Below are positions 11,512-45,605 of a stretch of 60,771 bases of DNA, piece after piece. Source of the DNA: Patescibacteria group bacterium UBA3531. GTDB lineage: Bacteria; Patescibacteriota; Minisyncoccia; Phycocordibacterales; UBA3531. The position numbers and the translations under genes were made by a program. The notes below the pieces were generated by a model. That model saw nothing but the letters and a program-made list of their open reading frames with translations. It did no database searches and had not been told where the DNA came from. Position 1 is the first letter of the stretch, and every line of letters begins with the position of its first letter. The DNA lies in assembly GCA_002376885.1 (NCBI GenBank), contig DFOW01000005.1:1-60771 (forward strand). The letters run 5' to 3'.

Positions 11512-11527
11512 AGTTAGGAGTGTGATA

Positions 11528-11804: not shown

Positions 11805-13124
11805 TTAACTATTTTGAATAGCGTTCAGTCCGTTTCCGTTTCTGTTTCGTTCTCGTTCTTCACGCAATCCCTTTAATTGTTCGTGCAAGGTTTGCACATA
11901 TACAAAGATAGCAACCAAAAGGACAATCAAAATGGTAAGGATAATCCACCCAAACACCGTGCTTGGGAAGAATCCTCCATTTGAGAGAATGAGTGCTCCT
12001 TGTCCGTTAGCGCGAGCATCGTCAACATCTGCCAAAGTGCCTGCGGTTGTGGTTGCGTTTTCATCTCCATTGTCTCCAAAACCAAAGAGTCGTGCCCAGA
12101 ACCCTCGAGTGTCCTCTTGTGCAGTTGTATCGTTAGAAGATTGAGAGGTGTCGTTTGTGTTTCCGCCTGTATCTGAACCAGAACCTTGATTATTTGAAGC
12201 TGTTCGTGACCCACTTGTTTGAGAAGGCGCGCTTCCTGTATTGTTTGTTCCTTGTGATGACTGATTAGTGTTTGACGTATTAGTGTTAAGAGCAACTGTT
12301 GGAACGCTAAGCGGTTGGTTGAACCCAGTCACTAGTCCCCCATCACTTGTAAATGCCAAGACAGAACCAACGGCTCGTCCACCTGGACCAAGAACTTCGG
12401 CTCGGTAGTAATAAATTGTCCCTGGTGTTAGACCAGTCAGTGTTTCTTGAAAACTAAGACCAAGGAACCCTGCTCCCAAGCCCTTAACTTGGGTTTGTTG
12501 CAAAATGTCAGGGGTGGTTCCCCATCTAAAGTATGCGCTAATGTTTGCGCTCGTATTGGTTTCTGCTTGTCCACGAATAATAACGGTATTGTCGTTAACA
12601 ATCTGCGGAACAAGGGTTACTGCTGTTGGCGCTGGGTATGAAGAGGTAGTGTCGATAATGGTACCAACGTTACTGATAAAGCTTCCGAGCGATTCAGAAA
12701 ACCCATCAATAATCCTAAATCGAATAGTGTCTCCGTATACATATTCTCCGTCAGATTCTTGCGCTACTGCTCGATAGTAATAAAAATCTTCTATATCAAG
12801 ATTAGACAAAAAATGAGAAAGGAAAATTTCATCGTCCCCTATCAAAATAGAGCTGGTTCGTTTACCAAGCGATGACGTCTCTCCCCATTCAAACCATGCG
12901 TTTCCAATGTTTGTTTCATCAGAAAGGTCTGCAATCATTTTAAGTTCTGCGCTCCCTTTATCTTCACCTGATCGATAAAATGATGGTGTAAACGTTACTA
13001 CGTCTCCAAATGGATCGTCGTCATGATCGGCAAGTGCCACTCCTGGCAAAAGGAGAGCAAGCACAAAAAGCCCCACTAAGAGGGTTTCTGCTACTTTTTT
13101 TGCTGTCTGCGCAAAAATATTCAT
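11805..13124 (-). CDS. surface protein with repeated Fn3-like modules, S/T/N/G-rich linker and C-terminal TM anchor
   Basis: Signal peptide from MNIFAQTAKKVAETLLVGLFVLALLLPGVALA (start moved to 13124). Repeated W..T...YYYRA modules. C-terminal TM WIILTILIVLLVAIFVYV. Confidence 0.7.
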   Translation of the reverse strand: MNIFAQTAKKVAETLLVGLFVLALLLPGVALADHDDDPFGDVVTFTPSFYRSGEDKGSAELKMIADLSDETNIGNAWFEWGETSSLGKRTSSILIGDDEIFLSHFLSNLDIEDFYYYRAVAQESDGEYVYGDTIRFRIIDGFSESLGSFISNVGTIIDTTSSYPAPTAVTLVPQIVNDNTVIIRGQAETNTSANISAYFRWGTTPDILQQTQVKGLGAGFLGLSFQETLTGLTPGTIYYYRAEVLGPGGRAVGSVLAFTSDGGLVTGFNQPLSVPTVALNTNTSNTNQSSQGTNNTGSAPSQTSGSRTASNNQGSGSDTGGNTNDTSQSSNDTTAQEDTRGFWARLFGFGDNGDENATTTAGTLADVDDARANGQGALILSNGGFFPSTVFGWIILTILIVLLVAIFVYVQTLHEQLKGLREERERNRNGNGLNAIQNS

Positions 13125-13195
13125 GGTTGGCATTATACAGTACTGACACTTGTTTGTCAATGCTTTCTCTTGATGCCTTTTTTAGTCGGGACGCC

Positions 13196-13268
13196 GGGAT
13201 TCGAACCCGGAATCGCTCGGTCCCAAACCGAGAATGTTAGCCGTTACACCACGTCCCGTCATCATGCT
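13196..13268 (-). tRNA. tRNA-Pro (anticodon TGG)
   Basis: acceptor CGGGACG/CGTCCCG; anticodon stem CTCGG/CCGAG with loop TTTGGGA; T arm CCGGG-TTCGAAT-CCCGG. Confidence 0.9.
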
Positions 13269-13304
13269 TATTAGCCACGCTATAGTAGCACAAAACTCAA
13301 TATT

Positions 13305-13697
13305 TTAAAGCAAAATGTCCTCTAAATGTTCCATCTCATCAACTTCTCCCTCTTTTAAATACACTGCGATTGCATCAACTTGGTAATCTTCGTCCTCTTT
13401 TCCCTCTTCTCTTAGGTAGGTTTGGATAATTCTTCGGAGGCGATCTTTTTTCTGCTTAGTAATATTAAAAAGTGGGTTGTAATCAAAATCCCCCTCTTTC
13501 TTGACAGAGATTGACTTCACCTCAACAAAATGGATCACTCCTTTTTTTGCAGCAATGATGTCAAGCTCTCCCCAGGGTTTTAAATAATTTCTTCCAAGAA
13601 CGGTAAACCCATTCTTCTCCAAGTGTTGTACCGCAATATCTTCCCCCTTGTCTCCTGTTTCTCTATTCTTACTCTTCATATCTTTCACGTGAAACAC
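13305..13697 (-). CDS. yraN: YraN family (UPF0102) endonuclease-like protein
   Basis: 130 aa; GDKGEDIAVQHLEKNGFTVLGRNY...GELDIIA...IHFVEVK pattern. Confidence 0.8.
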   Translation of the reverse strand: MFHVKDMKSKNRETGDKGEDIAVQHLEKNGFTVLGRNYLKPWGELDIIAAKKGVIHFVEVKSISVKKEGDFDYNPLFNITKQKKDRLRRIIQTYLREEGKEDEDYQVDAIAVYLKEGEVDEMEHLEDILL

Positions 13698-13923
13698 TTA
13701 AATCGTTTCTTTGGTAACATTACTGCTGTCTTTTTGGCTTCAAAGACCCTATCTTTAAAATGTCCTTATTTTAAGCCACTTTTCATATGAAACGGACATA
13801 ACGATAGTGTTTGTCTTTGACCTTTATACACATATCCCCAGTTTTATCCCCATTTCTTATTGGACTTTTCCACATAAGAATCCACATTCTGGGGACAAGT
13901 AATGCTCTTAAGGACATTTACTA

Positions 13924-14064
13924 GTGCGGGTAGGGACCTGTCTGCCGACAGGCAGGGAATCGGTCACAGATATTTTGCTCCGCCTGCCTGACGTCAGGCA
14001 GGCAAAATTCCGCGACCCCGCCTCGGTGCTCAGACCAATGGCACACCTCCGGCTTTCGATTCCC
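13924..14064 (-). other. GC-rich structured insert beginning with a duplicated, interrupted tRNA-Gly 3' end (integration-scar-like)
   Basis: GTGCGGGTAGGGA at 13924-13936 repeats 14115-14127. It is followed by a 20-nt hairpin CCTGTCTG-CCGA-CAGGCAGG and then GAATCG (the continuation of the tRNA T-loop). A perfect palindrome GCCTGCCTGAC/GTCAGGCAGGC lies at about 13982-14003. GGGAATCG (13955-13962) pairs with CGATTCCC (14057-14064). Confidence 0.45.
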
Positions 14065-14115
14065 AATACACCTTAAAATTATAGCCCAACACACGGTTGA
14101 GTCATAATTTTCATG

Positions 14116-14186
14116 TGCGGGTAGGGAGAATCGAACTCCCGACTCGTCCTTGGCAAGGACGTGTTATACCACTTAACCATACCCGC
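14116..14186 (-). tRNA. tRNA-Gly (anticodon GCC)
   Basis: Acceptor GCGGGTA/TACCCGC; anticodon stem CGTCC/GGACG with loop TTGCCAA. The T arm is identical to that of tRNA-Trp. Confidence 0.9.
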
Positions 14187-14199
14187 TGTGTGCTATATC

Positions 14200-14298
14200 G
14201 GGACTCGGCCACTCTCGCAGAATAGCTATTCTGCTCCATCGGCCCCCACTCGAGCCTTCGTGCTGCGCACGGCTTTGCAGGCTCTCGGTTCGAGTCCC
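14200..14298. ncRNA. candidate about 100-nt GC-rich structured RNA between tRNA-Gly and tRNA-Arg
   Basis: Closing stem GGGACTCG (14200-14207) with CGAGTCCC (14291-14298). Hairpins: GCAGAATA-GC-TATTCTGC 14217-14234, and GAGCCT...AGGCTC 14253-14284 enclosing CGTGC-TGC-GCACG. Contains a T-loop-like GGTTCGAGTCC but no cloverleaf. Confidence 0.35.
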
Positions 14299-14357
14299 CC
14301 TAAAAGCATTAAAATAATATTTCAAGGACACTTCTTGCCCTCGAAATTTATTTTAGG

Positions 14358-14429
14358 TGCTCCCGGAGGGACTCGAACCCCCAACGACGGTTCCGAAGAC
14401 CGTTGTGATATCCATTTCACCACGGGAGC
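14358..14429 (-). tRNA. tRNA-Arg (anticodon TCG)
   Basis: acceptor GCTCCCG/CGGGAGC; anticodon stem ACGGT/ACCGT with loop CTTCGGA; T arm GGGGG-TTCGAGT-CCCTC. Confidence 0.88.
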
Positions 14430-16475: not shown

Positions 16476-17366
16476 TTATCGCTTTTTACCGTGGAATTTC
16501 TTATGAATATCTCGCAAGGCCTTATCGGTTACATGGGTATATACCTGGGTGGTTGCAATATTTGCATGGCCAAGCATGGCTTGAACACTACGGAGATCAG
16601 CACCGTTTGAAAGAAGGTCAGTTGCAAAAGAGTGCCGAATAACATGCGGTGTTACTTTTTTACTAATGCCCGCCGCTATTGCATAGTGCTTCACCAATCG
16701 TTCAACGCTTCGTGTGGTGAGCGGGGTAGCATCGTCAATGGTTTTGTCGCTTTTAGGAATTGCCACAAAGAGGTGTTCTGACATGTCAGCACGTTTATCT
16801 AAATAATCCTTGAGTGCATCCCGCGCGCTAGGGGAGAGAAACACCACTCGCACTTTTTGCCCCTTTCCTCGGACTGAAAATTCGTCTCGTTTTAGATCAA
16901 CGGCGTCAATCGTAAGCCCTACAAGCTCCGACACACGGAGTCCTGTAGAGAATAAAAGCTCTAAAATAGCCTTGTCTCGCAACGTTTTTAGATCAGTTCC
17001 TTTTGGGGCCTGAAGCAATCTCTCGAGCTCGTCAGCAGAAATAAGGTCGAGTTCACGCCCTCCCGTTTTTGCAAGCTCGATCCGTTCTGGCGCCAGCGAC
17101 TCAATGCCTCGTTTTGCTAAATATTTCAAAAAAGACCGAAGAGCAATCAGATAATAGTTCTGCGTATTTTTTTTGAGTTCTTCGCGATTGAGGGTAAGAC
17201 GATATTTCCTAACAATATCGTCGGTGATTTTGCGAGGGTCTTTTAACCCAGAGAAATCAATAAACTTAGCAAGGTATCTGTCATAGTTTTCAACCGTTTT
17301 TAAGCTTCGCCCTCGTTCAATTTCAAGGTATTCAAGAAATTCTTGCTTTAAATCATGCAAATCCAT
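16476..17366 (-). CDS. tyrosine recombinase, XerC/XerD family
   Basis: 296 aa; N-terminal SAM-like domain; catalytic region HVIRHSFATDLL...LGHANIATTQVYTHV. Confidence 0.88.
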   Translation of the reverse strand: MDLHDLKQEFLEYLEIERGRSLKTVENYDRYLAKFIDFSGLKDPRKITDDIVRKYRLTLNREELKKNTQNYYLIALRSFLKYLAKRGIESLAPERIELAKTGGRELDLISADELERLLQAPKGTDLKTLRDKAILELLFSTGLRVSELVGLTIDAVDLKRDEFSVRGKGQKVRVVFLSPSARDALKDYLDKRADMSEHLFVAIPKSDKTIDDATPLTTRSVERLVKHYAIAAGISKKVTPHVIRHSFATDLLSNGADLRSVQAMLGHANIATTQVYTHVTDKALRDIHKKFHGKKR

Positions 17367-17519: not shown

Positions 17520-17891
17520 TCACGGCTGGCCGCCTTGCGGGGCACGGGATTCCTACGGGATTCCTCTTGCTACCGCCCGCCCGCCGTAGTCAAAAAACGG
17601 CAAACCTTGGCCCATCACGGGTCAAACGATCTGGGGGATCGAGTGACGAACTCGTCGCATCCGCCGTAGGTCTAGGCGCCCAGGGCGCCCAGGTACAAAC
17701 CGCAGCTAAGCCCGAATGAGGGGCATACGCTCGCCTCGTAGACCGAGGCAACCAGGACCCACAAAGAGATGGAATGTCGCGCCAACGGCCGCGGCCCCAC
17801 TGGGAAAAGCCTCTCACGAATACAGGTCCTTGGGCCGTAAGGTCCTCCGGGGCCGGAATCGACACCACATCGATTCCGGCCCTTCATCTTT
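17520..17891 (+). ncRNA. about 370-nt GC-rich non-coding RNA of unknown class, with its own promoter and terminator
   Basis: No protein-like ORF (the ORFs present are W/R/P-rich). Many local hairpins: CGAGT-GACGA-ACTCG, GCCTCG-TAGAC-CGAGGC, GGCGCC-CAG-GGCGCC. Tandem ACGGGATTCCT x2. Terminator GGCCGGAATCGA-N7-TCGATTCCGGCC (17851-17881) followed by CTTCATCTTTT. Confidence 0.55.
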
Positions 17892-21112: not shown

Positions 21113-21135
21113 ATTTTTATAAATAATAAAAACTA

Positions 21136-21168
21136 AAAAGCCCGGGAGTGTTACCTTCCGGGCTTTTT
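21136..21168. terminator. bidirectional terminator shared by pnp and the convergent GC-rich cassette B
   Basis: AAAAAGCCCGGGA-N8-TCCGGGCTTTTT. Confidence 0.75.
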
Positions 21169-21180
21169 GGCTACCGCTGG

Positions 21181-21459
21181 CTACTGCCAGCTTTCGTCGC
21201 CTCTGAAATCCTCGAAGATGTCCTGTGTTGCATCTTTGTCGTCGCTCCACAGGATTACATTGAATCCCGAGAGATCATCCTTTTGCCGAATCTGGACAGA
21301 GGCAATTTCTCCCTCATACTCCGTGTCACCGACATGAAGGGCAAGCTCTGCACCAGCCGCCGGAACGAAGGGGAGGATGAAGTCCTTTGAGAAGATCTCT
21401 TCATTCTCTTCACGACCAAGAACCACCACAACCGTGACACAAATTTCAGGAACACTCAT
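21181..21459 (-). CDS. hypothetical acidic 92-aa protein, GC-rich (cassette B)
   Basis: ATG with AGGAGG 5 nt upstream; protein-like composition; the overlapping plus-strand 201-aa ORF is S/T-rich low-complexity. Confidence 0.6.
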   Translation of the reverse strand: MSVPEICVTVVVVLGREENEEIFSKDFILPFVPAAGAELALHVGDTEYEGEIASVQIRQKDDLSGFNVILWSDDKDATQDIFEDFRGDESWQ

Positions 21460-21649
21460 CGTGTCCTCCTTAAAAGAACATTCTGTTTCGTCTTGCCGAT
21501 TTGACTTGGAAGACTCGTCAGTCAGCCTTGGGCTGAGACAGAGGAAGTTTTTGAATAGAACTTCCGAAACTATGGAACCTGTGGTCTCGCCCGTGTTCCC
21601 CGATGGTTATTACCTCCACCGGTTGGCACGGATCCCCACTCACGCAAGG

Positions 21650-21931
21650 TTACCATTCGTCGGCGCGGTATTCTCTGCACAAGCGCTCACCGTACTCCAG
21701 TTTGGTACCATCTCCTGGGTACACAACAATACGGTTAAGGTGGGATGCCCACGATGCTCGCTCACCATACACTTCGCGCACAGCACAGCAAATCACATCC
21801 CACGCAACGCTCTTCAGCCAAACAAGTCCCTCTCCGTCACCCATTTTGTAGACAGGGTTGTCTCGCAGTTCGCGCAACTCTTCATAGAGTTGCGCGTATG
21901 CCCGCCAAGCCTCTATGACACGGGTATCCAT
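21650..21931 (-). CDS. hypothetical 93-aa protein, GC-rich (cassette B)
   Basis: ATG at 21931 with AAGGAG 7 nt upstream (the track starts one codon earlier, at a GTG). Confidence 0.6.
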   Translation of the reverse strand: MDTRVIEAWRAYAQLYEELRELRDNPVYKMGDGEGLVWLKSVAWDVICCAVREVYGERASWASHLNRIVVYPGDGTKLEYGERLCREYRADEW

Positions 21932-22123
21932 CACGATTCTCCTTGCAAAGAACTAGTGGGCATTATTGCCCGAGAGGGATAAGCACTTACTCATCACCTC
22001 ACTATTTCTACGCCAATTATATTCTAATCTGTCAAGTTTGTGCGTTTATATAGATACGTTTTATTATAAATACCTATATTTTTAGCCATATCTTAGATAC
22101 ATATTTAATTTTGTGCGTTTGGA

Positions 22124-25918: not shown

Positions 25919-25947
25919 TTGACATTACAAAAAATAAAGTGTATTAT
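25919..25947 (+). promoter_or_regulatory. promoter (TTGACA-N17-TATTAT) of GC-rich cassette C
   Basis: TTGACA 25919-25924; TATTAT 25942-25947. Confidence 0.5.
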
Positions 25948-25992
25948 ATTTTTTAGAAATTTCGCCCTTTTTAAATAAGAGGAGAATCTCAA

Positions 25993-26346
25993 ATGGCGCT
26001 TACGGTAGCATCGCCCAAGCTGAGTCTGGCAGAGGCCACCCTCGGAAGGTGGGTGGGCTTGCCCATCAACATGGGTGGAGAGCTCGGATACGTCGCATGC
26101 GCAGGTCGCGTGACGGCAGTCAACGACGACAAGAGCATCGTCGTGACGCTTCTCGGTTCGACCTGGCCCCGAACGGAACTCCGTGGGACGATCATCTCGA
26201 TCACCCAGGAGCGCTTCGGCAGGGGTGAGGCCACGATCTACGCGATGACCAACGACGAAGAAGCGGAGCACACGGAAGAAGCCCAGAAGTGGATCGAAGA
26301 ACAGCGTGGCTTCCTCGAGCGCCTCATGGAGGCGCTCGAGAGCTAG
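25993..26346 (+). CDS. hypothetical 117-aa protein, GC-rich (cassette C)
   Basis: ATG preceded by AAGAGGAG; the composition switches abruptly at the start codon. Confidence 0.65.
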   Translation: MALTVASPKLSLAEATLGRWVGLPINMGGELGYVACAGRVTAVNDDKSIVVTLLGSTWPRTELRGTIISITQERFGRGEATIYAMTNDEEAEHTEEAQKWIEEQRGFLERLMEALES

Positions 26347-26371
26347 CTGGTTCCGAGAAGGAGTCACGTCC

Positions 26372-26560
26372 ATGAATCAAGACCAGTTCGGAAAGATGAT
26401 CGTCTGCTGGCTCGGTCCAGCGTTCGTGATTCTCGCGTCCCCGTTCATCCTCGCTGGCCTCATCCTCGCCGTGCAGAACCTTCCCCTGGGTGGGTTCACG
26501 ACCGACGAGACGAAGCACGAGATCACGGTCACGGGAGAGTTCACCTTCCCTCCGTACTAG
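26372..26560 (+). CDS. hypothetical 62-aa membrane protein, GC-rich (cassette C)
   Basis: ATG at 26372 with AAGGAG about 10 nt upstream; TM WLGPAFVILASPFILAGLILAV. Confidence 0.55.
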   Translation: MNQDQFGKMIVCWLGPAFVILASPFILAGLILAVQNLPLGGFTTDETKHEITVTGEFTFPPY

Positions 26561-26582
26561 AGCGTCGGAGGAGATGACACAG

Positions 26583-26622
26583 AAGCCCCTTAGTAGGAAA
26601 CGAACAGGGGCTTTGTCTTTTT
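26583..26622 (+). terminator. terminator of cassette C
   Basis: AAGCCCCT-N15-AGGGGCTT then TGTCTTTTT. Confidence 0.65.
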
Positions 26623-26670
26623 AAATCTCTCAAGAAACCACATTTGGGAGCATCTACTTATAAATCTCTC

Positions 26671-26796
26671 TTGGAGCAGGGTTTGAGAACCTGCCGGAGA
26701 AAATTTTGCTTGGCTCAGCCGTAGGCTGAAAAATTTTCGAGGATAAGCGAGCGCTCCGCAGGAGAGCGCGAAGCGGGTTCTCAAACCCTGCTCCAA
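26671..26796 (+). ncRNA. structured RNA motif, copy 1 (P1 plus three-way junction with conserved CTGCCGNAG / TGCTTGG / YCGAGGATAAG)
   Basis: P1 is 26671-26691 with 26776-26796 (21 bp). CTGCCGGAG 26691-26699; TGCTTGG 26707-26713. Hairpin TCAGCC-GTA-GGCTGA 26715-26729. TCGAGGATAAG 26737-26747. Hairpin GCGCTC-N7-GAGCGC 26751-26769. CTTGG pairs with TCGAG through G-U pairs only on the plus strand. Confidence 0.55.
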
Positions 26797-26848
26797 AAAA
26801 AATAAACCCTATTGAATTTCGCAAGCCACCACGATACACTAAAGGCAT

Positions 26849-27265: not shown

Positions 27266-27826
27266 GTGGTAGCCAGACTGGCATGGCGCCAGAGGAGACA
27301 GGAATTGGAAACTCATTACCATTTGAGAAGCGGGAGTCCCCAGGATGGAATCCTCCTTGGTCCGGGCGCGATTCTTCAGGCGGGCGACAAGCTGGCGCAT
27401 CCCGACGGGTTCTGGGAACCGTGCATGACCCCAGGAGCTCTTCTTTGGGATAGGCCGAAAGAGGTTTGCTGGGTTCGCCCCGTCGACCTCCCTCGGCACC
27501 TGAAGGACCTCTTGGTCTTCATTGCCGAGCGGGGGCGCCTCCTGTACCGACGAGACGAGACGCTCTTCGAAGAAGGAACGCAAGGGAAGATCGACACACG
27601 CCCGTGCTGGAAGATGCTCCGCGGAGCACACGAGGTAGACCGAGCCGATGCAACGAGTGGTGGCATTCCCGGTATCGGGGCACTTGCCTTCGTCGATCCG
27701 CTCCTTGCCTACGGACTTCTCACTCCCGCAAGCGGGAGTGAAGTGCTCTTCTCTCCCAACGAGTACGGGACACGTGTTGCCATCAACCATCTCGCCGAAA
27801 GGTGGGCAGATGAGGTTGCGACATAG
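27266..27826 (+). CDS. hypothetical protein, GC-rich (cassette D); start codon uncertain
   Basis: The plus frame ends at TAG 27824-27826, followed by a plus-oriented terminator. A TTG near 27305 with GGAG upstream is an alternative start. The 233-aa minus-strand ORF is judged a shadow. Confidence 0.5.
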   Translation: MVARLAWRQRRQELETHYHLRSGSPQDGILLGPGAILQAGDKLAHPDGFWEPCMTPGALLWDRPKEVCWVRPVDLPRHLKDLLVFIAERGRLLYRRDETLFEEGTQGKIDTRPCWKMLRGAHEVDRADATSGGIPGIGALAFVDPLLAYGLLTPASGSEVLFSPNEYGTRVAINHLAERWADEVAT

Positions 27827-29442: not shown

Positions 29443-29471
29443 TTGACAAAAATATAAAAATAGTGTATATT
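29443..29471 (+). promoter_or_regulatory. consensus promoter (TTGACA-N17-TATATT) of GC-rich cassette E
   Basis: TTGACA 29443-29448; TATATT 29466-29471; starts 4 nt after the comM stop. Confidence 0.55.
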
Positions 29472-29573
29472 TACGAATGGATAATCGGGTTGAGAATGTC
29501 TCTTCCTGGTTAATTAACCCCACGACTGCAAACAGGCTGTATGAGCCTAGACAGTCACTAGAAGGGTTGTTCC

Positions 29574-30866
29574 ATGACAAGCGAACTGACGACACTGAAT
29601 CTTCCTGCCAACCGACCGAGTCCCCAGGAGCTCTTCGACTACCCCCAGTACACGATCCCCGGGATCACCACTTGGGAGCAGGTCGTGCTCCTCGGGAGCA
29701 AGAACATCGGGGCGATGATCAGCCGGTGTCGCTCCCGCGAGAAGGAGCTCACCAGCAGGATCCAGCGGCTCGTCGAGAAGCAGAAGCTTCTCGAAGGCAA
29801 GTCCGGTGACGACATCAAGGAGATGGCCAAGGGTTTCGAGAATCCCACCATCACCGAGACGGGTGTCCCGGACGGTAGCTGGAACGACGACCTGGAGCCG
29901 ACCGACGGGGCGAGTAAGGCCCGCGAACGCGGGGCGACCACCTTCAACATCTGCGGGTGGTGCACGCACGCCGGTGGAGGCACCTGTCGCTACGGCTACT
30001 ACATCAAGACCAGCTGTGGCCTGATGCACGGCGACTCGCCCGAGACGGCCTTCAACACACCTTGTCTCCTCCAGGAGATGGGGAACGACCAGATCACGGC
30101 GATCGTCGAACGCACCAAGAACCTGATCATGGACACCAAGGAACTCCGCGAGAAGGTGCGGACCGGAATCCGGATCCTGCAGCAGCTCAAGGAGAACGAG
30201 GGGTCCACGGAGAAGCCCTACCTGATGTCCCTCCGTCCGCATGACCACTTCAACGTCGGCGACGACGTGATGGTGCGCATCGGCGGCCACGACAACGTGA
30301 TCGTGGAGGGCGAGTGGGCTCCGGCGATGGTGGTGTTCGGCTACCGTCATCACGATGGCTGCGTGAGCACCCAGACGCTGTTCCCGATCCACAACGGTGA
30401 AAATCTCGAGGGTCGGGGATGGGGCTTCGGGATGAGTCGTCCGGAATGCCTCCTCAGGAGCGAGTTCAGCTACCTGCGGGACGCCTTCGAGAACGACCTC
30501 TGGTTCCTGCGGCTTTGGCTGCAGGCGCTCGACGAGAAGCTGACGGGCTTCAACCCCGTAAGCTTCCGGAAGGCACTCCAGGACGGTGCGATCGCCGACC
30601 CGCCCGAGGACTGGGATCCCCCCGTCGACGAGATCGCTGTTCGAAGCGTCGAGGATGCGCAGTGCGTACTCCAGATGCTCAACGTCGACCTCTTCGACAC
30701 GGAGGAGAAGGTTCGTGGCTGGGTCAACATGCAGCTGCAGTTCGTTCACCCCGACAAGCACGCCAACGGCAACAAGGGCGCCCAGTCCTATGCCGAGCGT
30801 CAGACGAAGGCGGTGTATGCGGCGCGTGATCTCCTGATCCAGCGCCTGCGGGATCGTCAGAGCTAG
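29574..30866 (+). CDS. 430-aa protein with C-terminal J domain (HPD motif) and central Cys-rich region, GC-rich (cassette E)
   Basis: J-domain-like C-terminus: DAQCVLQMLNVDL..EEKVRGWVNMQLQFVHPDKH...AYAARDLL, with HPD at 30747-30755. Cys cluster CGWCTHAGGGTCRYGYYIKTSCG. The 442-aa antisense ORF is a shadow. Confidence 0.75.
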   Translation: MTSELTTLNLPANRPSPQELFDYPQYTIPGITTWEQVVLLGSKNIGAMISRCRSREKELTSRIQRLVEKQKLLEGKSGDDIKEMAKGFENPTITETGVPDGSWNDDLEPTDGASKARERGATTFNICGWCTHAGGGTCRYGYYIKTSCGLMHGDSPETAFNTPCLLQEMGNDQITAIVERTKNLIMDTKELREKVRTGIRILQQLKENEGSTEKPYLMSLRPHDHFNVGDDVMVRIGGHDNVIVEGEWAPAMVVFGYRHHDGCVSTQTLFPIHNGENLEGRGWGFGMSRPECLLRSEFSYLRDAFENDLWFLRLWLQALDEKLTGFNPVSFRKALQDGAIADPPEDWDPPVDEIAVRSVEDAQCVLQMLNVDLFDTEEKVRGWVNMQLQFVHPDKHANGNKGAQSYAERQTKAVYAARDLLIQRLRDRQS

Positions 30867-30884
30867 GAGGCGCAAGCCTCAATC

Positions 30885-30930
30885 GGCCCCGGCCACTAAC
30901 TTCGGTTAGTGCGTCCGGGGCCATTTTGTT
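30885..30930 (+). terminator. GC-rich terminator of cassette E
   Basis: GGCCCCGG...CCGGGGCC enclosing CACTAAC-TTCG-GTTAGTG, then ATTTTGTT. Confidence 0.7.
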
Positions 30931-30972
30931 CCTATTCTGTAACTTTTTTTAATTAATCTCGTTATATACAAC

Positions 30973-31039
30973 GAAGGGCAGATAGTCTCATAGACGAGAC
31001 CTGATGAGCTCACAAGAAAACGAGCGAAATCTGTTTTTC
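30973..31039 (+). ncRNA. type III hammerhead self-cleaving ribozyme (complete catalytic core)
   Basis: Stem III: 30973-30983 with 31029-39. Cleavage triplet AUA, with the cut predicted after 30984. Stem I: GTCTC-ATAGAC-GAGAC, 30985-31000. CTGATGA 31001-07. Stem II: GCTC-N10-GAGC, 31008-25. GAA plus A15.1, 31026-29. Confidence 0.8.
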
Positions 31040-31088
31040 AATGTAAGCCTCAACCCTAGTTAGTAGTTTGCCTTACTAAACAGGGTCA

Positions 31089-31119
31089 ACACAAAACCCC
31101 CATATGGGGGTTTTGTGTT
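31089..31119. terminator. bidirectional terminator (serves the M23 peptidase gene on the minus strand)
   Basis: ACACAAAACCCCC-ATA-GGGGGTTTTGTGT. Confidence 0.75.
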
Positions 31120-31181
31120 CGCCTGAGATGTCTCCTTACTTTTATTATGAAAAGTTAAAATGGGTTTACCCGTTCAGTATT

Positions 31182-32267
31182 TTAGAAAGGGTTTTTTGCT
31201 CCGCGCACTTCAAAGTGAACATGGGGCCCTGTTGAGCGTCCGGTGTTCCCAACGTATCCAATAACTTGTCCTTGAACCACGCTTTGCCCAGCATACACAA
31301 TGTTACTTGAGTTGTGCGAGTATACCGTCTGTGTTCCGTTAGGGTGTGCAATAACAATGTAATTTCCGTACCCTCCATTCCAGCCTGTTCGTGAAATAAT
31401 CACATCCCCACTTGCCGCCGCTAAGATAGGTGTTCCTGTTGGGGTAGCCAAGTCAACAGCATTGTATCCGTGAAGCCCTTGTGTTCGTTTGTATCCAGTA
31501 ACGGGAGCACTAAAGTATCCACTAATTGCTGGACCTCCTGCTCCTCTTACAATAGCGCCTGTTGCGGTAGAGGTATAACTACTTTGAATTTTTCCATCGG
31601 GAACAATAATACTGTCGCCAACAGCCAAAACATGACCGTCTTGTATTCCATTAAATGAAATAATTTCTTCTGTCTTTACGCCATATTTCTTAGCGATACT
31701 TGCGAGCGTGTCTCCACTTTTTACGGTGTGCTCAATTCCGCTTACTGGCAAAATTACAAGCGTTTGTCCTTCATGAATCACACCACCTCGTCCAATATCA
31801 TTTGCCCAAATAATAGTGTCGGTTGTTACTCCAAATAGTTTTGCAATTTGCGAAAGGGAGTCACCAGAACGAACCACATACACACTAATTTGTTCTGGCC
31901 GTGGGGCAATTTCGGTATTACCCCTGGAACCAAGTGGTCCATTGTCGGCCACAAGTGCTTGCCCGTCAGCAATCGTTACGTCCCCACCTCCTTTAGCTGG
32001 GTTGGGGTCTGGGTTAAGGGCCGCACGCAAAAGCGCTACGTTTTGAGAGTTGATATCGTAGGTAAGATCATTATCTACTCCAAATAAACTCCCCAAAAAA
32101 GAAACAATCCCGGCATGAGCAGGGAGAGCAAAGGATCCAAGGATAATAAGGGCAACCACAAGGGTAGTGGCCTTTTTAAATGAAAGGTTCTTTAAAGTTC
32201 GTATAATCGCCTGAAGCCATGTACCGGAAGGTTCAGGGTCTTGTAGATTCGATGTAATAAGCCTCAA
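31182..32267 (-). CDS. LysM-LysM-M23 family peptidoglycan endopeptidase
   Basis: 361 aa; TM anchor; two LysM repeats (YVVRSGDSLSQIAKLFGV, HTVKSGDTLASIAKKYGV); M23 motifs (GLHGYNAVD, GPHVHFEV). Confidence 0.88.
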   Translation of the reverse strand: MRLITSNLQDPEPSGTWLQAIIRTLKNLSFKKATTLVVALIILGSFALPAHAGIVSFLGSLFGVDNDLTYDINSQNVALLRAALNPDPNPAKGGGDVTIADGQALVADNGPLGSRGNTEIAPRPEQISVYVVRSGDSLSQIAKLFGVTTDTIIWANDIGRGGVIHEGQTLVILPVSGIEHTVKSGDTLASIAKKYGVKTEEIISFNGIQDGHVLAVGDSIIVPDGKIQSSYTSTATGAIVRGAGGPAISGYFSAPVTGYKRTQGLHGYNAVDLATPTGTPILAAASGDVIISRTGWNGGYGNYIVIAHPNGTQTVYSHNSSNIVYAGQSVVQGQVIGYVGNTGRSTGPHVHFEVRGAKNPF

Positions 32268-32495: not shown

Positions 32496-32897
32496 ATGCG
32501 GAACCACCGCAACGGCTTCACCCTGATCGAGCTCATGATCGTCGTCGCCATCATCGGCATCTTGGCGGCCATCGCCATCCCGAACTTCCTGCATTTCCAG
32601 ATCAAGCAGCAGATGAACGTGGAGTTCCAGGAGGTCGCCACGGCCCTCGAGCTGTCGGACGCCGGGGACCCCGTCCCCTCGCTGTGCACCGGCACCTGGC
32701 GCAACGAGAAGGGCAACCGCTTCGACTGCTACCTCAAGAGCTTCGAGGATGGCGGTCACGTGGTGACCATCCGCTTCTACTACCAGGACGACCCGGACCC
32801 CAGCCATGCGCTGACCTGGGCGATCAACGAAAACGGCGAGGTGGATCTCCCGACCTACGAGTCCCTGCGTCACCCACACAGGCAGACGAGCTCCTAG
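32496..32897 (+). CDS. type IV pilin / pseudopilin with canonical class III signal peptide, GC-rich (cassette F)
   Basis: 133 aa; MRNHRNG|FTLIELMIVVAIIGILAAIAIPNF (G-1, F+1, E+5); two Cys in the C-terminal half; AAGGAG RBS. Confidence 0.85.
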   Translation: MRNHRNGFTLIELMIVVAIIGILAAIAIPNFLHFQIKQQMNVEFQEVATALELSDAGDPVPSLCTGTWRNEKGNRFDCYLKSFEDGGHVVTIRFYYQDDPDPSHALTWAINENGEVDLPTYESLRHPHRQTSS

Positions 32898-32920
32898 GCA
32901 GCCGTCCTTCGGGACGTCGA

Positions 32921-32960
32921 GAGCCTTGACAGCACATCACTGTCGGGGCTCTTTCTTTTT
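32921..32960 (+). terminator. terminator of the pilin gene
   Basis: GAGCCTTGACAG-N7-CTGTCGGGGCTC (two G-U pairs) then TTTCTTTTT. Confidence 0.7.
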
Positions 32961-33004
32961 ATTTATTTTGAACGTAAAGTGATAGAAGAAACACGGAGGG
33001 TCTC

Positions 33005-33169
33005 ATGAAATTGTTACGCACACTAGGTGCTGTCGCAGCTCTCTTGTTCGTCGGGTTCCTCGCTTGGAGGGCATTCACCGGAGAAGGTGAGCCCGGATCG
33101 CTCCTTCTGATCGGAGCAGGAATCGCAGGGCTCTCGCTCTTGCGAACCAGGCACCCGGTGAGCTACTAG
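33005..33169 (+). CDS. 54-aa protein: signal/TM helix plus PEP-CTERM-like tail, GC-rich (cassette F)
   Basis: MKLLRTLGAVAALLFVGFLAWRAFTGEGEPGSLLLIGAGIAGLSLLRTRHPVSY; GGAGGG RBS. The tail (EP-GSLLLIGAGIAGLSLL-RTR) resembles a PEP-CTERM sorting signal. Not in the ORF track because it is under 60 aa. Confidence 0.45.
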   Translation: MKLLRTLGAVAALLFVGFLAWRAFTGEGEPGSLLLIGAGIAGLSLLRTRHPVSY

Positions 33170-33176
33170 GGACTCT

Positions 33177-33207
33177 GCCCCGGCGCATGCGCCGGGGCTT
33201 CCTTTTT
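33177..33207 (+). terminator. GC-rich terminator
   Basis: GCCCCGGCGC-AT-GCGCCGGGGC then TTCCTTTTT. Confidence 0.75.
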
Positions 33208-43757: not shown

Positions 43758-45605
43758 ATGGCATTCAATTTATTTAACAAAAAAAAGAAAGAAGAAGAGA
43801 ACTTAATAGGGAATCTGTTACCTGAAGAACTTTCAAGCAATCCTGTTCTTGAAATGACTGATGTTATTGCCCCAAGTGCTCTTAAAATTAATCCAAACAA
43901 TCTTAACTTGGGTGGCACGTTTGCGCGAACTCTTTTTGTTGTCTCATACCCACGGTTTTTAACCGAGAGCTGGCTTTCGCCAATTATTAATCTTGACCGT
44001 GTTTTTAACGTTTCGATTTTTACACACCCTGTTGAAACCAATAAGGTGTTGCGGCAATTACAAAAAAAGTTAGCAGAAATCCAAAGTCAAATTAGCCTAC
44101 GAGAAGAAAAGGGCTTGGTGCGCGATCCAAAGCTCGACACCGCCTACCAAGATATTGAACGATTGCGAGACCAACTCCAACAATCACAAGAAAAACTCTT
44201 TGACGTAGGACTCTACGTAACTATTTTTGGAGATTCTGAAGAAGACTTAAATAAAACAGAAACTGAAATTAAATCAGTTCTTGATTCGAAGTTAATTTAC
44301 TTAAAACCGGCGCTTTTCCAACAAGCAGAAGGTTTTAGGAGTGTGCTTCCTATTGGACAAGACGAGCTTCAGGTGCATTCAAAACTTAATTCCGCACCGC
44401 TTTCAAGCTTCTTCCCATTTGTTTCGTTTGACCTTACTTCAAACCAAGGAATTTTGTATGGAATCAATCGTCATAACTCAAGTCTGATTCTGTTTGACCG
44501 CTACTCAATGGAAAACTATAACTCTATTATTTTTGCAAAGAGTGGTGCTGGTAAGTCATACTTCACCAAACTTGAGATTTTACGGACACTTATGTTTGAT
44601 ACTGACGTCATTGTTATCGACCCTGAACGTGAGTATGAATACATGGCAGAGGCAGTAGGAGGAAGATACTTCAATATTTCTCTTTCAAGTGAACACCATA
44701 TTAATCCGTTTGACCTTCCTGACCCGGCAGACGATGAGAGTCCGTCTGATGTCCTTCGAAGCAATATTATTACCTTAGTAGGACTATTCAGAATTCTTTT
44801 AGGAGGGCTCTCTCCTGAAGAAGATTCAATCTTAGACAATGCTATTACTGAAACCTATGCATTAAAAGACATCACCACCGACGGAAACTTTAAAGGCAAG
44901 GAGCCACCACTTCTCTCTGATCTTGAAACTGTCTTGGCCGGAATGGAAGGTGGGGAAAGCCTGGCACAACGCCTCTACAAATACACACGCGGTACCTGGG
45001 CTGGGTTCATTAACCAACCAACCAATGTTGATATCAGCAAAAAATTTGTAGTGTTTTCAGTGCGAGACATGGAAGACGAGCTTAAACCCGCCGCCATGTA
45101 CATTGTTATGCACCATATTTGGAGCGCCATCAGAAAACAATTAAAGAGACGACTTCTTGTTATTGATGAGGCCTGGTGGATGATGAAGTCAGAAGACACA
45201 GCAAGCTTTGTGTTCTCGCTTGCAAAACGAGGACGAAAATATTACCTGGGTGTTGCAACTATTACTCAAGACGTGGGCGACTTCCTGCGCTCGCCTTATG
45301 GCTTACCAATTATTACCAACTCCTCTATTCAGATCCTCTTAAAACAGTCCCCGGCGTCTATTGATTTGGTTCAAAAAACGTTCAACTTAACTAATGAAGA
45401 AAAGTTCTTGCTCCTTGAATCAGGAGTGGGGGAAGGAATCTTTTTTGCAGGACTCAAGCATGTGGCTATGAAAGTGGTTGCCTCATACACAGAAGACCAA
45501 CTTATTACGAGTGACCCCTCACAACTTCTTCAAATTAAGCGCGCCCGACAAGAATTAAAAGATTTAAGGCAAGAAAAAGTAAAGCAAACACAAAACAATG
45601 GTTAG
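43758..45605 (+). CDS. virB4: VirB4/TraC-like T4SS ATPase
   Basis: ATG at 43758 is preferred over the upstream in-frame start at 43656. Walker A FAKSGAGKSYFTK; Walker B RLLVIDEAWWMM. Confidence 0.8.
   Translation: MAFNLFNKKKKEEENLIGNLLPEELSSNPVLEMTDVIAPSALKINPNNLNLGGTFARTLFVVSYPRFLTESWLSPIINLDRVFNVSIFTHPVETNKVLRQLQKKLAEIQSQISLREEKGLVRDPKLDTAYQDIERLRDQLQQSQEKLFDVGLYVTIFGDSEEDLNKTETEIKSVLDSKLIYLKPALFQQAEGFRSVLPIGQDELQVHSKLNSAPLSSFFPFVSFDLTSNQGILYGINRHNSSLILFDRYSMENYNSIIFAKSGAGKSYFTKLEILRTLMFDTDVIVIDPEREYEYMAEAVGGRYFNISLSSEHHINPFDLPDPADDESPSDVLRSNIITLVGLFRILLGGLSPEEDSILDNAITETYALKDITTDGNFKGKEPPLLSDLETVLAGMEGGESLAQRLYKYTRGTWAGFINQPTNVDISKKFVVFSVRDMEDELKPAAMYIVMHHIWSAIRKQLKRRLLVIDEAWWMMKSEDTASFVFSLAKRGRKYYLGVATITQDVGDFLRSPYGLPIITNSSIQILLKQSPASIDLVQKTFNLTNEEKFLLLESGVGEGIFFAGLKHVAMKVVASYTEDQLITSDPSQLLQIKRARQELKDLRQEKVKQTQNNG

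What the first reader, a model, noticed from the sequence alone, without database searches (positions are those of the whole stretch)
30973..31039. Complete type III hammerhead ribozyme downstream of the J-domain cassette
All invariant core nucleotides are present in the right order. The cleavage triplet AUA is at 30982-30984, with the cut predicted after A30984. Stem I is the hairpin GUCUC-AUAGAC-GAGAC. CUGAUGA follows. Stem II is GCUC-N10-GAGC, with the conserved G10.1-C11.1 pair. GAA follows, and A15.1 pairs with U16.1. Stem III has 5 Watson-Crick bp, extendable to 11 with three G-U pairs. It lies 43 nt past the cassette E terminator and before the convergent M23 peptidase terminator. No obvious gene needs processing there. 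Bacterial hammerheads usually mark phage or mobile DNA, so this supports a mobile origin for the neighbouring GC-rich DNA.
Basis: partly seen in the sequence, partly recalled or inferred. Interest (0 to 1): 0.75.

Follow-up and report, generated by a model that had tools for sequence, protein, structure and literature searches.

The report
Hammerhead ribozyme beside inserted foreign gene
The sequence is a complete, statistically non-random type III hammerhead (self-cutting RNA) motif sitting just after a GC-rich gene that was inserted into a marine ultra-small (Patescibacteria) bacterial genome; a second, more canonical one lies 9.5 kb away, so it is a new example of a known kind of element, its cutting activity still untested.

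Summary
That includes the AUA17 cleavage site, stems I, II and III, CUGAUGA, GAA, and the G10.1-C11.1 and A15.1-U16.1 pairs. The hammerhead fold is the minimum-free-energy structure.

A motif of this quality is expected about 1.6e-7 times per window by chance. My scan found a second type III hammerhead at 21482-21542 (-), with a GUC site, between two orphan ORFs.

Rfam RF00008 scores both below its gathering score of 48.5 (27.6 and 35.4 bits). Eight canonical phage type III hammerheads also fell below it (37-48 bits), so that threshold is not a fair refutation test. A model built from phage hammerheads separates both from background (E = 0.004 and 2e-7; next best 2.8).

Synteny with about 80 related genomes shows both hammerheads lie in lineage-specific GC-rich insertions. 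No homologue of HH#1 was found, and its AUA triplet is atypical. Activity is therefore inferred, and a decayed copy remains possible.

In a truncated genome scan, 73 of 95 validated hits were in Patescibacteria. These were almost all type III and sat 3' of GC-richer orphan ORFs.

Verdict: a real hammerhead motif and a new member of a known kind.

The parts
30973..30983 (+). HH#1 stem III, 5' strand (16.11-16.1). The core-proximal 5 Watson-Crick pairs are 30979-30983.
   Evidence: Sequence; MFE fold; descriptor hit.
30984..30984 (+). HH#1 cleavage-site nucleotide A17 (triplet AUA 30982-30984). The predicted cut is between 30984 and 30985.
   Evidence: Position relative to the core and stems. 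Cleavage itself is inferred, not shown.
30985..31000 (+). HH#1 stem I hairpin: GUCUC / AUAGAC / GAGAC. It can also be read as 5 bp plus an A.C mismatch plus a UAGA loop.
31001..31007 (+). HH#1 catalytic core, C3-A9 (CUGAUGA).
31008..31025 (+). HH#1 stem II hairpin: GCUC / ACAAGAAAAC / GAGC, with G10.1-C11.1 and an A-rich loop 2.
31026..31039 (+). HH#1 core G12-A13-A14 (31026-31028) and stem III 3' strand (A15.1 at 31029, through 31039).
29574..30866 (+). It is a conserved CPR protein family with an invariant CGWC motif and an HPD motif near the C-terminus. No Pfam match.
29443..29471 (+). Near-consensus sigma-70-type promoter match (TTGACA-17-TATATT, 11/12), 4 nt after the ComM stop. It is the likely promoter of the 430-aa gene and the inferred source of read-through transcripts that reach HH#1.
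   Evidence: a consensus match only.
30885..30930 (+). Strong GC-rich hairpin plus AUUUUGUU tract. This is a terminator-like element between the gene and HH#1.
31053..31119 (+). Imperfect hairpin (31053-31086) followed by a perfect 16+16 palindromic bidirectional terminator (31088-31119). The terminator is shared with the convergent M23/LysM peptidase gene (31182-32267, - strand).
   Evidence: (I23).
21482..21542 (-). HH#2, a second type III hammerhead: UCUGUC|UCAGCC-CAA-GGCUGA CUGACGA GUCUU-N15-AAGAC GAA ACAGA. The predicted cut is between 21537 and 21536 on the - strand.
   Evidence: RF00008 35.4 bits; E = 6.7e-4 over the whole window; 38.4 bits, E = 2e-7.
21650..21934 (-). Orphan ORF o94 (93-94 aa, GC about 0.55) upstream of HH#2, with an AAGGAG ribosome-binding site.
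   Evidence: it matches only itself among 5.8e9 proteins.
21181..21459 (-). Orphan ORF o92 (92 aa) downstream of HH#2. AGGAGG lies at 21470-21465 and the ATG follows 22 nt after the ribozyme's 3' end. A terminator follows at 21134-21166.

Best explanation
The site is a genuine type III hammerhead ribozyme gene (HH#1). It lies at the 3' flank of a horizontally acquired, GC-rich gene cassette inserted between comM and the convergent M23 peptidase gene of a marine Patescibacteria (Paceibacteria-like) genome.

Proposed mechanism:
1. Transcripts start at the cassette promoter (29443-29471).
2. Some of them read through the terminator-like hairpin (30885-30930) and carry the ribozyme.
3. Stem I and stem II hairpins form co-transcriptionally. 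Stem III closes once 31029-31039 is made.
4. The 2'-OH of A30984 attacks the adjacent phosphate.
5. The upstream mRNA is left with a 2',3'-cyclic phosphate at 30984. The downstream RNA (ribozyme, hairpin, terminator) is left with a 5'-OH.
6. The effect is to fix the 3' end of the foreign gene's mRNA. It also uncouples that mRNA from downstream RNA that would otherwise run toward, and antisense to, the M23 gene.

The second hammerhead (HH#2) does the analogous job between two orphan cistrons. It leaves the downstream mRNA with a 5'-OH and a folded ribozyme 22 nt ahead of its start codon.

Shown: the motif, its fold, its statistical significance, the insertion context, and the family-wide context.
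Inferred: transcription through the site, self-cleavage, and the consequences for the RNA.
For: - All invariant core nucleotides and the three core-adjacent pairs are present.
- The hammerhead fold is the MFE for the motif alone and in a 162-nt context (P = 0.85 and 0.44). It is within 1-2.4 kcal/mol of the MFE in 259-426-nt contexts.
- The expected chance frequency is about 1.6e-7 per window.
- A second hammerhead lies in the same window.
- An independent phage-derived covariance model gives E = 0.004 with filters off, with clear separation from background.
- A16.2-U15.2 preserves stem III pairing where the consensus has G-C. Natural AUC/GAAAU variants exist (5 of 215), and A17 occurs in 35 of 215.
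- Relatives lack both the insert and any hammerhead at this locus.
- In 109 Patescibacteria type III hammerheads, 65 lie within 100 nt downstream of a same-strand ORF. The 400 nt upstream is 6-7 GC points above the locus background (p = 1e-8), and downstream it is not. HH#1 shows the same pattern: 0.59 upstream, 0.45 downstream.
- L046, a related MAG, has a type III hammerhead 3' of a GC-richer ORF between convergent genes.
- The literature reports that clustered bacterial hammerheads flank small non-conserved ORFs. It proposes that they process long transcripts, and the tandem sets tested cleaved in vitro (PMC3088659; PMC6155905).
Against: - There is no direct evidence of transcription or cleavage.
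- RF00008 scores 27.6 bits, below the gathering score of 48.5. The site is lost by the filters in whole-window scans.
- No homologue was found in viral, genome or metagenome collections. None lies next to 36 homologues of the upstream gene. No covariation test is therefore possible.
- All other assemblies of this locus are 100% identical.
- The AUA triplet was seen in 0 of 215 sampled natural type III hammerheads. A review reports it as up to orders of magnitude slower than GUC or GUA in minimal ribozymes (PMC3138052).
- Loop 1 and loop 2 differ from the common UGUGU / AAAA pair, so the tertiary contact is unverified.
- A strong terminator-like hairpin sits upstream and may let little transcription through.
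- No promoter match lies directly upstream.
Confidence: 0.6

Rival explanations
1. HH#1 is a decaying or already inactive relic of a hammerhead that arrived with the inserted DNA. The consensus is still intact, but the RNA is no longer made or cleaves too slowly to matter.
For: - The AUA triplet is absent from 215 sampled natural type III hammerheads, and a review reports it as slow (PMC3138052).
- It has the lowest covariance-model scores of the hammerheads examined (27.6 and 21.4 bits).
- Stem I is read as 5 bp plus an A.C mismatch.
- It lies behind a terminator-like hairpin and has no promoter of its own.
- It has no conserved partner elsewhere.
- Perreault et al. note that some genomic hammerheads may not be functional.
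Against: - Not one of the 13 invariant or near-invariant core positions, nor any of the three core-adjacent pairs, is damaged.
- Stem III is unusually long (11 pairs), and the hammerhead fold is the MFE.
- A16.2-U15.2 keeps the pairing.
- With A16.2 at 5/215 and A17 at 35/215, under one AUA would be expected in 215. Its absence is therefore not significant.
Confidence: 0.25
2. HH#1 is the 5'-processing element of a small non-coding RNA. An independent transcript would start in the AT-rich spacer (30931-30972). It would be trimmed by the ribozyme to a roughly 135-nt RNA (30985 to about 31119) made of the hammerhead, the 31053-31086 hairpin and the terminator.
For: - The region 30867-31125 is exceptionally structured (z = -8.3).
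- The ribozyme is followed by a hairpin and a terminator and by no ORF.
- A type III topology leaves the ribozyme on the 3' product.
Against: - There is no promoter-like match between 30930 and 30972.
- Local Rfam scans find no known RNA family there.
- Among 108 Patescibacteria type III hammerheads, a terminator-like site within 120 nt downstream is no more frequent than at random positions (7.4% against 7.2%).
- The terminator is most simply the host's convergent-gene terminator.
Confidence: 0.08
3. The match is a chance occurrence of the hammerhead consensus in a hairpin-rich intergenic region.
For: The RF00008 E-value, scaled from the 81-nt search to the whole window, would be about 0.1.
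Against: - The expected frequency is 1.6e-7 per window for this grade.
- The stricter descriptor hit 0 of 400 shuffles.
- A second, independent hammerhead lies in the same window.
- The context matches the family-wide pattern.
Confidence: 0.01
4. The hammerhead is a functional part of the mobility or establishment mechanism of GC-rich gene cassettes in Patescibacteria. It might act as an RNA-level boundary or tag, rather than simply processing mRNA.
For: - Five intergenic gaps of one conserved syntenic block carry GC-rich inserts.
- Type III hammerheads in Patescibacteria sit at a sharp boundary between GC-rich and AT-rich sequence.
- They lie next to cargo ORFs that are almost all unrelated to one another (77 of 83 singletons).
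Against: - Three of the five inserts in the window have no ribozyme of any Rfam class.
- No shared end repeats were found.
- No recombinase or reverse transcriptase is linked to them.
- Ordinary mRNA processing explains the same data.
Confidence: 0.06

Closest known systems
Type III hammerhead ribozymes of bacteria and phages (Perreault et al. 2011, PMC3088659; de la Pena et al. 2017 review, PMC6155905)
   Same: - Same core and same three-helix topology with stem III open.
- Intergenic position next to small or unannotated genes in foreign DNA.
- More than one ribozyme in the neighbourhood.
- HH#2 is nearly identical to the consensus of phage and Patescibacteria copies (CUGUC ... CUGAYGA GUC ... 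GAC GAAACAG).
   Different: - HH#1 has an AUA triplet rather than GUC or GUA (0 of 215 sampled).
- It has a 10-nt A-rich loop 2 and a very long stem III.
- It sits behind a terminator-like hairpin.
- The two ribozymes are on opposite strands and in separate inserts, not in one polycistronic array.
- No phage structural genes are nearby.
Rfam RF00008 Hammerhead_3 (seed dominated by viroid, satellite and plant sequences)
   Same: Full-length alignment to all 54 model positions with the correct structure.
   Different: Scores are 27.6 bits (HH#1) and 35.4 bits (HH#2), below the gathering score of 48.5. Eight canonical phage copies tested were also below it.
Patescibacteria type III hammerheads found here (L248-L367, L046)
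   Same: Type III topology; a position 3' of a GC-richer, usually orphan ORF with AT-rich sequence just downstream; stem II GCUC/GAGC.
   Different: Those copies mostly carry loop 1 UGUGU-like, loop 2 AAAA or GAAA, and GUC. HH#1 shares only the architecture and stem II, which was the search key, so that similarity is partly by construction.
Engineered ribozyme insulators such as RiboJ (an sTRSV type III hammerhead placed before a ribosome-binding site). From my own knowledge, not tested here.
   Same: It works like HH#2: a type III hammerhead about 10-25 nt upstream of the ribosome-binding site cuts away upstream RNA. That gives the downstream cistron a defined 5' end.
   Different: It is a synthetic part. 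This is not a membership claim.
3'-UTR hammerheads of mammalian CLEC2 genes. From my own knowledge, not tested here.
   Same: It works like the proposed role of HH#1: a ribozyme in the 3' region of an mRNA severs the message from its downstream end.
   Different: It is eukaryotic, discontinuous and of type III-like arrangement, and its effect depends on polyadenylation. It is unrelated in sequence.

Membership tests
Hammerhead ribozyme, type III | Core C3-U4-G5-A6-N7-G8-A9 between stems I and II | tested here: met
   CUGAUGA at 31001-31007.
Hammerhead ribozyme, type III | Core G12-A13-A14 between stems II and III | tested here: met
   GAA at 31026-31028.
Hammerhead ribozyme, type III | Cleavage triplet N-U-H (U16.1, and position 17 not G) | tested here: met
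   AUA at 30982-30984. It obeys NUH but is a rare and reportedly slow triplet.
Hammerhead ribozyme, type III | Pairs adjacent to the core: 1.1-2.1, 10.1-11.1 and A15.1-U16.1 (the rejection rule of Perreault et al.) | tested here: met
   G30985-C31000, G31008-C31025 and A31029-U30983. The rule is quoted.
Hammerhead ribozyme, type III | Three helices with stems I and II closed by loops and stem III open | tested here: met
   MFE structure; descriptor hit; covariance-model alignments.
Hammerhead ribozyme, type III | Covariance-model score at or above the Rfam gathering score (RF00008, 48.5 bits) | tested here: not met
   27.6 bits. The control shows the cut-off is too strict for prokaryotic copies: eight phage hammerheads scored 37.3-47.9 bits.
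Hammerhead ribozyme, type III | Significant score against an independent model of prokaryotic or phage type III hammerheads | tested here: met
   Model R1 with filters off over the whole window: 21.4 bits, E = 0.004, rank 2. Background is at most 10.1 bits. E-values from this short calibration are rough.
Hammerhead ribozyme, type III | Loop 1 to loop 2 tertiary contact needed for fast cleavage at physiological Mg2+ | not testable with these tools
   Stem lengths (5 or 6 bp, and 4 bp) and an A-rich loop 2 are compatible. No Watson-Crick pseudoknot is possible because loop 2 has no U.
Hammerhead ribozyme, type III | Conservation with compensatory changes in homologous copies | tested here: inconclusive
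   No homologous copy was found, and other assemblies are 100% identical.
Hammerhead ribozyme, type III | Site-specific self-cleavage giving 2',3'-cyclic phosphate and 5'-OH ends | not testable with these tools
   This needs in vitro transcription or end-specific RNA-seq.
Clustered prokaryotic/prophage hammerheads flanking small genes (Perreault 2011) | Several hammerheads close together | tested here: met
   Two within 9.5 kb. However, they are on opposite strands and in separate inserts.
Clustered prokaryotic/prophage hammerheads flanking small genes (Perreault 2011) | Flanking ORFs are small and not conserved | tested here: met
   o92 and o94 match only themselves among 5.8e9 proteins. The gene next to HH#1 is 430 aa and conserved within CPR, so this feature is met for HH#2 only.
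Clustered prokaryotic/prophage hammerheads flanking small genes (Perreault 2011) | Prophage context (integrase and phage genes nearby) | tested here: inconclusive
   - A tyrosine recombinase gene lies at 16476-17366 (-).
- There are no PHROG hits for the insert ORFs except the pilin-like one.
- There is no megablast match to phage records.
- Neighbours are housekeeping genes in conserved synteny.

The most novel reading that the evidence does not exclude
Type III hammerheads may be a strongly enriched, lineage-wide feature of Patescibacteria (CPR) genomes. There they would form the 3' boundary of GC-rich, mostly orphan gene cassettes that settle in intergenic gaps. The two ribozymes in this window would then be members of a ribozyme-tagged cassette system that has not been described, rather than stray prophage remnants.
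Probability: 0.2. Interest if true: 0.75.

Novelty: new member of a known kind. Interest (0 to 1): 0.5.

Why it matters
On its own the site adds one atypical (AUA) type III hammerhead and one canonical one to the many known in bacteria. That is useful mainly as an annotation and as a marker of foreign DNA.

The context gives it more value. This is a streamlined marine Patescibacteria genome in which a conserved housekeeping gene block has acquired a GC-rich insert in nearly every intergenic gap, and two of those inserts carry hammerheads.

A limited scan suggests that Patescibacteria hold a disproportionate share of genomic type III hammerheads, always at a transition from GC-rich to AT-rich sequence next to unrelated orphan ORFs. 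I found no paper in the searchable library that links hammerheads with this phylum.

If a proper survey confirms the pattern, it would offer a tractable setting for the long-open question of what bacterial hammerheads are for. The genomes are small, and the modules are simple: one gene plus one ribozyme.

Tried and rejected
- Rfam gathering scan of the window: only 4 tRNAs.
- Megablast of 28-34 kb against phage records: no match.
- Search for homologues of HH#1, keeping loop 2 and the core fixed and the stems free:
  - One chance match in genomes (L117, stems do not pair).
  - None in IMG/VR.
  - None in JGI metagenomes. A JGI contig identical to the window exists (L119), so that collection evidently does not hold it.
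- 36 genome loci encoding homologues of the 430-aa protein (289 kb): no hammerhead. The ribozyme is therefore not a conserved partner of that gene.
- Population variation: six other assemblies of the locus are 100% identical, so no covariation can be read.
- o92 and o94 have no relatives, so there is no comparative test for HH#2 either.
- Exact-protein lookup of the called 319-aa product: not on record.
- Very relaxed descriptors add only weak hits inside coding regions (3524-3608, 44231-44298, 21741-21820). I judged these to be chance.
- Other ribozyme classes in the remaining GC-rich inserts: none in the whole-window scan at E <= 5 or in local scans at E <= 0.5.
- Shared terminal repeats among the inserts: none.
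- The idea that hammerhead plus terminator is a conserved unit: rejected. 8 of 108 Patescibacteria hammerheads have a terminator-like site within 120 nt, which equals the random baseline.
- The 99.6% pairing in alignment A3 is not evidence. Those sequences were selected by a descriptor that requires pairing.
Full report
**1. The observation**

The sequence at 30973-31039 (+) reads GAAGGGCAGAUA|GUCUC-AUAGAC-GAGAC-CUGAUGA-GCUC-ACAAGAAAAC-GAGC-GAA-AUCUGUUUUUC.
- The AUA triplet is at 30982-30984.
- Stem I is a 5-bp hairpin.
- CUGAUGA is at 31001-31007.
- Stem II has 4 bp, with G10.1-C11.1.
- GAA is at 31026-31028.
- A15.1 pairs with U16.1.
- Stem III has 5 Watson-Crick pairs that extend to 11 pairs with three G-U.

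On its own the 67-mer folds into exactly this three-way junction as its minimum-free-energy structure (-19.5 kcal/mol, 57% of the ensemble, z = -2.98). In a 162-nt context the hammerhead fold is still the MFE (ensemble probability 0.44). In 259-426-nt contexts it lies 1-2.4 kcal/mol above the MFE. That is ordinary for a ribozyme that folds co-transcriptionally.

**2. Chance**

I wrote a descriptor for the three circular permutations of the hammerhead: CUGANGA, GAA, H17, and three helices.
- With relaxed limits (stems >=4/3/4, G-U allowed, loops 3-40) it finds 5 hits in 400 dinucleotide-preserving shuffles of the window, or 0.0125 per window.
- With Watson-Crick stems >=4/4/5 it finds none in 400 shuffles.
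- An analytic expectation reproduces the relaxed figure (0.0122). It gives 1.1e-5 for Watson-Crick 4/4/5 and 1.6e-7 per window for a motif of HH#1's grade.
- The real window contains two hits.

**3. A second hammerhead**

The second hit lies at 21482-21542 on the - strand: UCUGUC|UCAGCC-CAA-GGCUGA-CUGACGA-GUCUU-N15-AAGAC-GAA-ACAGA. It has the canonical GUC site.

It sits between two small ORFs of a - strand operon. The upstream ORF is o94 (21650-21934) and the downstream ORF is o92 (21181-21459). Its 3' end is 22 nt before the o92 start codon, and an AGGAGG ribosome-binding site lies in between. Each ORF matches only itself among 5.8 billion proteins.

**4. Covariance models**

The Rfam gathering scan reports only four tRNAs.
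- In an 81-nt search, RF00008 aligns HH#1 end to end at 27.6 bits (gathering score 48.5; E = 1.4e-4 for that search).
- HH#2 scores 35.4 bits, with E = 6.7e-4 in the whole-window E-value scan.

Eight canonical GUC or GUA type III hammerheads in eight IMG/VR loci scored 37.3-47.9 bits, all below 48.5. An AU-rich subclass was not reported at all. The RF00008 cut-off is therefore not a valid refutation test for prokaryotic copies.

I then built a model (R1) from 17 phage type III hammerheads, chosen so that they do not share HH#1's stem II. Over the whole window with filters off:
- HH#2 scores 38.4 bits (E = 2e-7).
- HH#1 scores 21.4 bits (E = 0.004).
- The best background hit scores 10.1 bits (E = 2.8).

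HH#1 is thus a real but divergent member.

**5. How HH#1 is atypical**

Among 215 type III hammerheads collected here, the cleavage triplets were GUC 122, GUA 30, UUC 20, GUU 12, CUC 10, CUU 7, AUC 5, and AUA 0. A review states that AUA can be orders of magnitude slower than GUC or GUA in minimal ribozymes (PMC3138052).

Two points weigh against reading this as decay:
- A at 16.2 (5/215, always with U15.2) and A at 17 (35/215) both occur naturally. Fewer than one AUA would be expected in this sample.
- HH#1 keeps the 16.2-15.2 pair as A-U.

Loop 2 (ACAAGAAAAC) is A-rich like the common AAAA or GAAA loops, but longer. Stem I can be read as 5 bp plus an A.C mismatch plus a UAGA loop. Whether the loop-loop contact forms cannot be judged here.

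**6. Whose genome, and what surrounds it**

Neighbouring genes are housekeeping: PNPase, a DksA-type zinc finger, ComM/YifB, an M23/LysM peptidase, UvrD and KsgA. The best relatives of ComM are Paceibacteria, Nomurabacteria and Vogelbacteria MAGs at no more than 61% identity.

Identical copies of the locus occur in marine assemblies: ENA ERZ842013, JGI 3300020447, GCA_002708165.1, CESG01 and ERR599159. From their accession series I take these to be Tara Oceans data.

In about 80 related loci the order PNPase-(p505)-p464-DksA-ComM-M23(-)-UvrD-KsgA is conserved with short gaps. ComM to M23 is roughly 10-300 bp in about 16 loci, and DksA to ComM is roughly 30-50 bp.

In the window, each of these gaps holds a segment far richer in GC than the 0.43 background:
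- 21150-22000 (o94, HH#2, o92)
- 25990-26600
- 27266-27826
- 29574-30930
- 32496-33200

The ComM-M23 gap is 1743 bp. It contains:
- a near-consensus promoter match 4 nt after the ComM stop (29443-29471, 11/12);
- a 430-aa gene with GC 0.60-0.65;
- a strong hairpin with a U-tract (30885-30930);
- a 42-nt AT-rich spacer;
- HH#1;
- a further hairpin (31053-31086);
- the bidirectional terminator (31088-31119).

The whole 30867-31125 stretch is exceptionally structured (z = -8.3). None of the 80 relatives has a hammerhead at this position. The ribozyme therefore came with, or after, the insertion.

**7. The upstream gene**

The 430-aa protein has about 150 homologues, all no more than 57% identical, in Paceibacterota, Minisyncoccota, Kaiserbacteria and Saccharibacteria. 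They share invariant cysteines (CGWC...) and a near-invariant HPD motif close to the C-terminus. Pfam and PHROGs give nothing. Four distant relatives sit in large IMG/VR contigs.

None of 36 genomic loci encoding homologues (289 kb) has a hammerhead. The ribozyme is not a conserved companion of this gene family.

**8. Wider context found on the way**

Those loci hold 259 descriptor-valid hammerheads in 1.06 Mb: 164 type I, 79 type III and 16 type II. This agrees with the known link to phages (PMC3088659, PMC6155905).

- 78 of the 120 loci are named as Patescibacteria lineages.
- In 73 of those 78, the match is a validated hammerhead.
- 109 of the 112 hammerheads in those loci are type III.
- 21 loci have more than one; L262 has eight in 4 kb.

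For the 109 Patescibacteria copies:
- Only one lies inside a long ORF.
- 65 lie within 100 nt downstream of a same-strand ORF; the upstream ORFs extracted in the clustering step have a median length of about 107 aa.
- 40 have a Shine-Dalgarno sequence plus a start codon within 120 nt downstream.
- The upstream ORFs are almost all unrelated to each other (77 of 83 singletons).
- The 400 nt upstream average 0.499 GC against 0.431 for distant parts of the same locus (per-locus Wilcoxon p = 1e-8; true in 85% of loci). The downstream 400 nt do not differ.
- The profile is +3 to +7 GC points over about 600-700 nt upstream and -7 to -8 points in the first 100 nt downstream.

Viral type III copies show a weaker version of the same asymmetry (p = 4e-4). 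Viral type I copies show none.

HH#1 (0.59 upstream, 0.45 downstream) and HH#2 (0.54, 0.49) fit the pattern. So does L046, whose hammerhead follows a GC-richer 218-aa ORF between convergent genes.

Full-text searches found no paper that links hammerhead ribozymes with Patescibacteria, CPR, Saccharibacteria or Parcubacteria.

These survey numbers are preliminary. The scan was keyed on one stem II sequence and truncated at 120 rows. Taxon labels come from record titles. The enrichment was not normalised against the phylum's share of the database.

**9. Mechanism**

The best-supported reading is that HH#1 is the 3'-flanking ribozyme of the inserted cassette. Transcripts from the 29443 promoter that pass the 30885-30930 hairpin fold into the hammerhead and cut between A30984 and G30985. 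This leaves the mRNA with a 2',3'-cyclic phosphate end and releases the downstream RNA with a 5'-OH. HH#2 would separate the o94 and o92 cistrons in the same way.

This is the role proposed for clustered prophage hammerheads, several of which were shown to cleave in vitro (PMC3088659).
- Shown here: the motif, its fold, its significance, the insertion context and the family-wide pattern.
- Inferred: transcription, catalysis and the effect on the RNA.

The main rival is that HH#1 is a slow or dead relic. The evidence for that is the AUA triplet, the low model scores, the position behind a terminator-like hairpin, and the lack of any conserved counterpart.

A role in 5' processing of a small RNA is less likely. 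There is no promoter match, and a hammerhead followed by a terminator is not a recurrent arrangement (8 of 108, equal to the random baseline). Chance is excluded for practical purposes.

**10. Verdict**

- It is a new member of a known kind. HH#1 is an atypical copy and HH#2 a canonical one.
- Interest is moderate for the site itself. It would be higher if the Patescibacteria-wide pairing of GC-rich orphan cassettes with a 3' type III hammerhead holds up in a controlled survey.

Noticed in passing
window 21482-21542 (-): A second, canonical (GUC) type III hammerhead lies between two orphan ORFs (o94 21650-21934, o92 21181-21459). It ends 22 nt upstream of the o92 start codon.
   Followed up: yes
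window 21150-22000, 25990-26600, 27266-27826, 29574-30930, 32496-33200 (also about 8600-9700): Nearly every intergenic gap of a syntenic housekeeping block conserved across Paceibacteria-like genomes holds a GC-rich (0.52-0.65) insert, against a 0.43 background. Each insert carries its own ORF(s) and a GC-rich hairpin. No shared end repeats were found.
   Followed up: partly
L248-L367 (genome contigs pattern scan): 78 of 120 loci matching a generic hammerhead pattern come from Patescibacteria/CPR MAGs, and 73 of them hold validated hammerheads. 109 of the 112 hammerheads there are type III. No paper in the library links hammerheads to this phylum. The scan was truncated and keyed on one stem II, so the enrichment is not yet quantified.
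   Followed up: partly
L248-L367, L124-L243: Type III hammerheads sit at a compositional step. GC is +3 to +7 points for about 600-700 nt upstream and -7 to -8 points in the first 100 nt downstream. The upstream-versus-background difference is strong in CPR (p = 1e-8) and weaker in viral type III (p = 4e-4). It is absent for viral type I.
   Followed up: partly
L262 2474-6528 (+): Eight type III hammerheads lie within about 4 kb of a Parcubacteria MAG contig, spaced 140-2100 nt apart. Several intervals have no ORF of 45 aa or more.
   Followed up: partly
L046 457-509 (-): A related MAG has a type III hammerhead (GUC) about 30 nt after the stop of a GC-richer 218-aa ORF, between convergent genes. 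This is the same layout as HH#1.
   Followed up: partly
window 29547-30875 (-) versus 29574-30866 (+): The GC-rich gene has a long antisense ORF (442 aa). Public assemblies call a 404-aa gene on what appears to be that opposite strand. The + strand ORF is the one with about 150 homologues and conserved Cys and HPD motifs.
   Followed up: partly
window 25919-25947 (+) and 29443-29471 (+): Two 11/12 sigma-70-type promoter matches lie immediately after the stop codons of host genes (p464 and ComM) and just before GC-rich inserts. This suggests each insert has a strong promoter of its own.
   Followed up: no
window 26664-26803 (+): A long inverted repeat (31-nt arms, 87% complementary, 78 nt apart) sits inside or at the edge of a GC-rich insert. 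The only Rfam matches are spurious miRNA-precursor-type hits.
   Followed up: no
window 16476-17366 (-) and 17600-17800: A tyrosine recombinase (Phage_integrase Pfam) gene lies about 4 kb from HH#2. Next to it is a 580-bp intergenic stretch with a 200-bp block at 0.635 GC and no Rfam match.
   Followed up: no
window 10685-14429 (-): Four tRNA genes lie on the - strand within 3.8 kb. Two of them are 81% identical over 73 nt.
   Followed up: no
L119 (JGI 3300020447 contig): A JGI metagenome contig identical to the window exists. Even so, the exact-pattern scan of metagenome contigs for HH#1 returned nothing. That collection therefore does not contain this record, and negative results from it are weaker than they look.
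   Followed up: no
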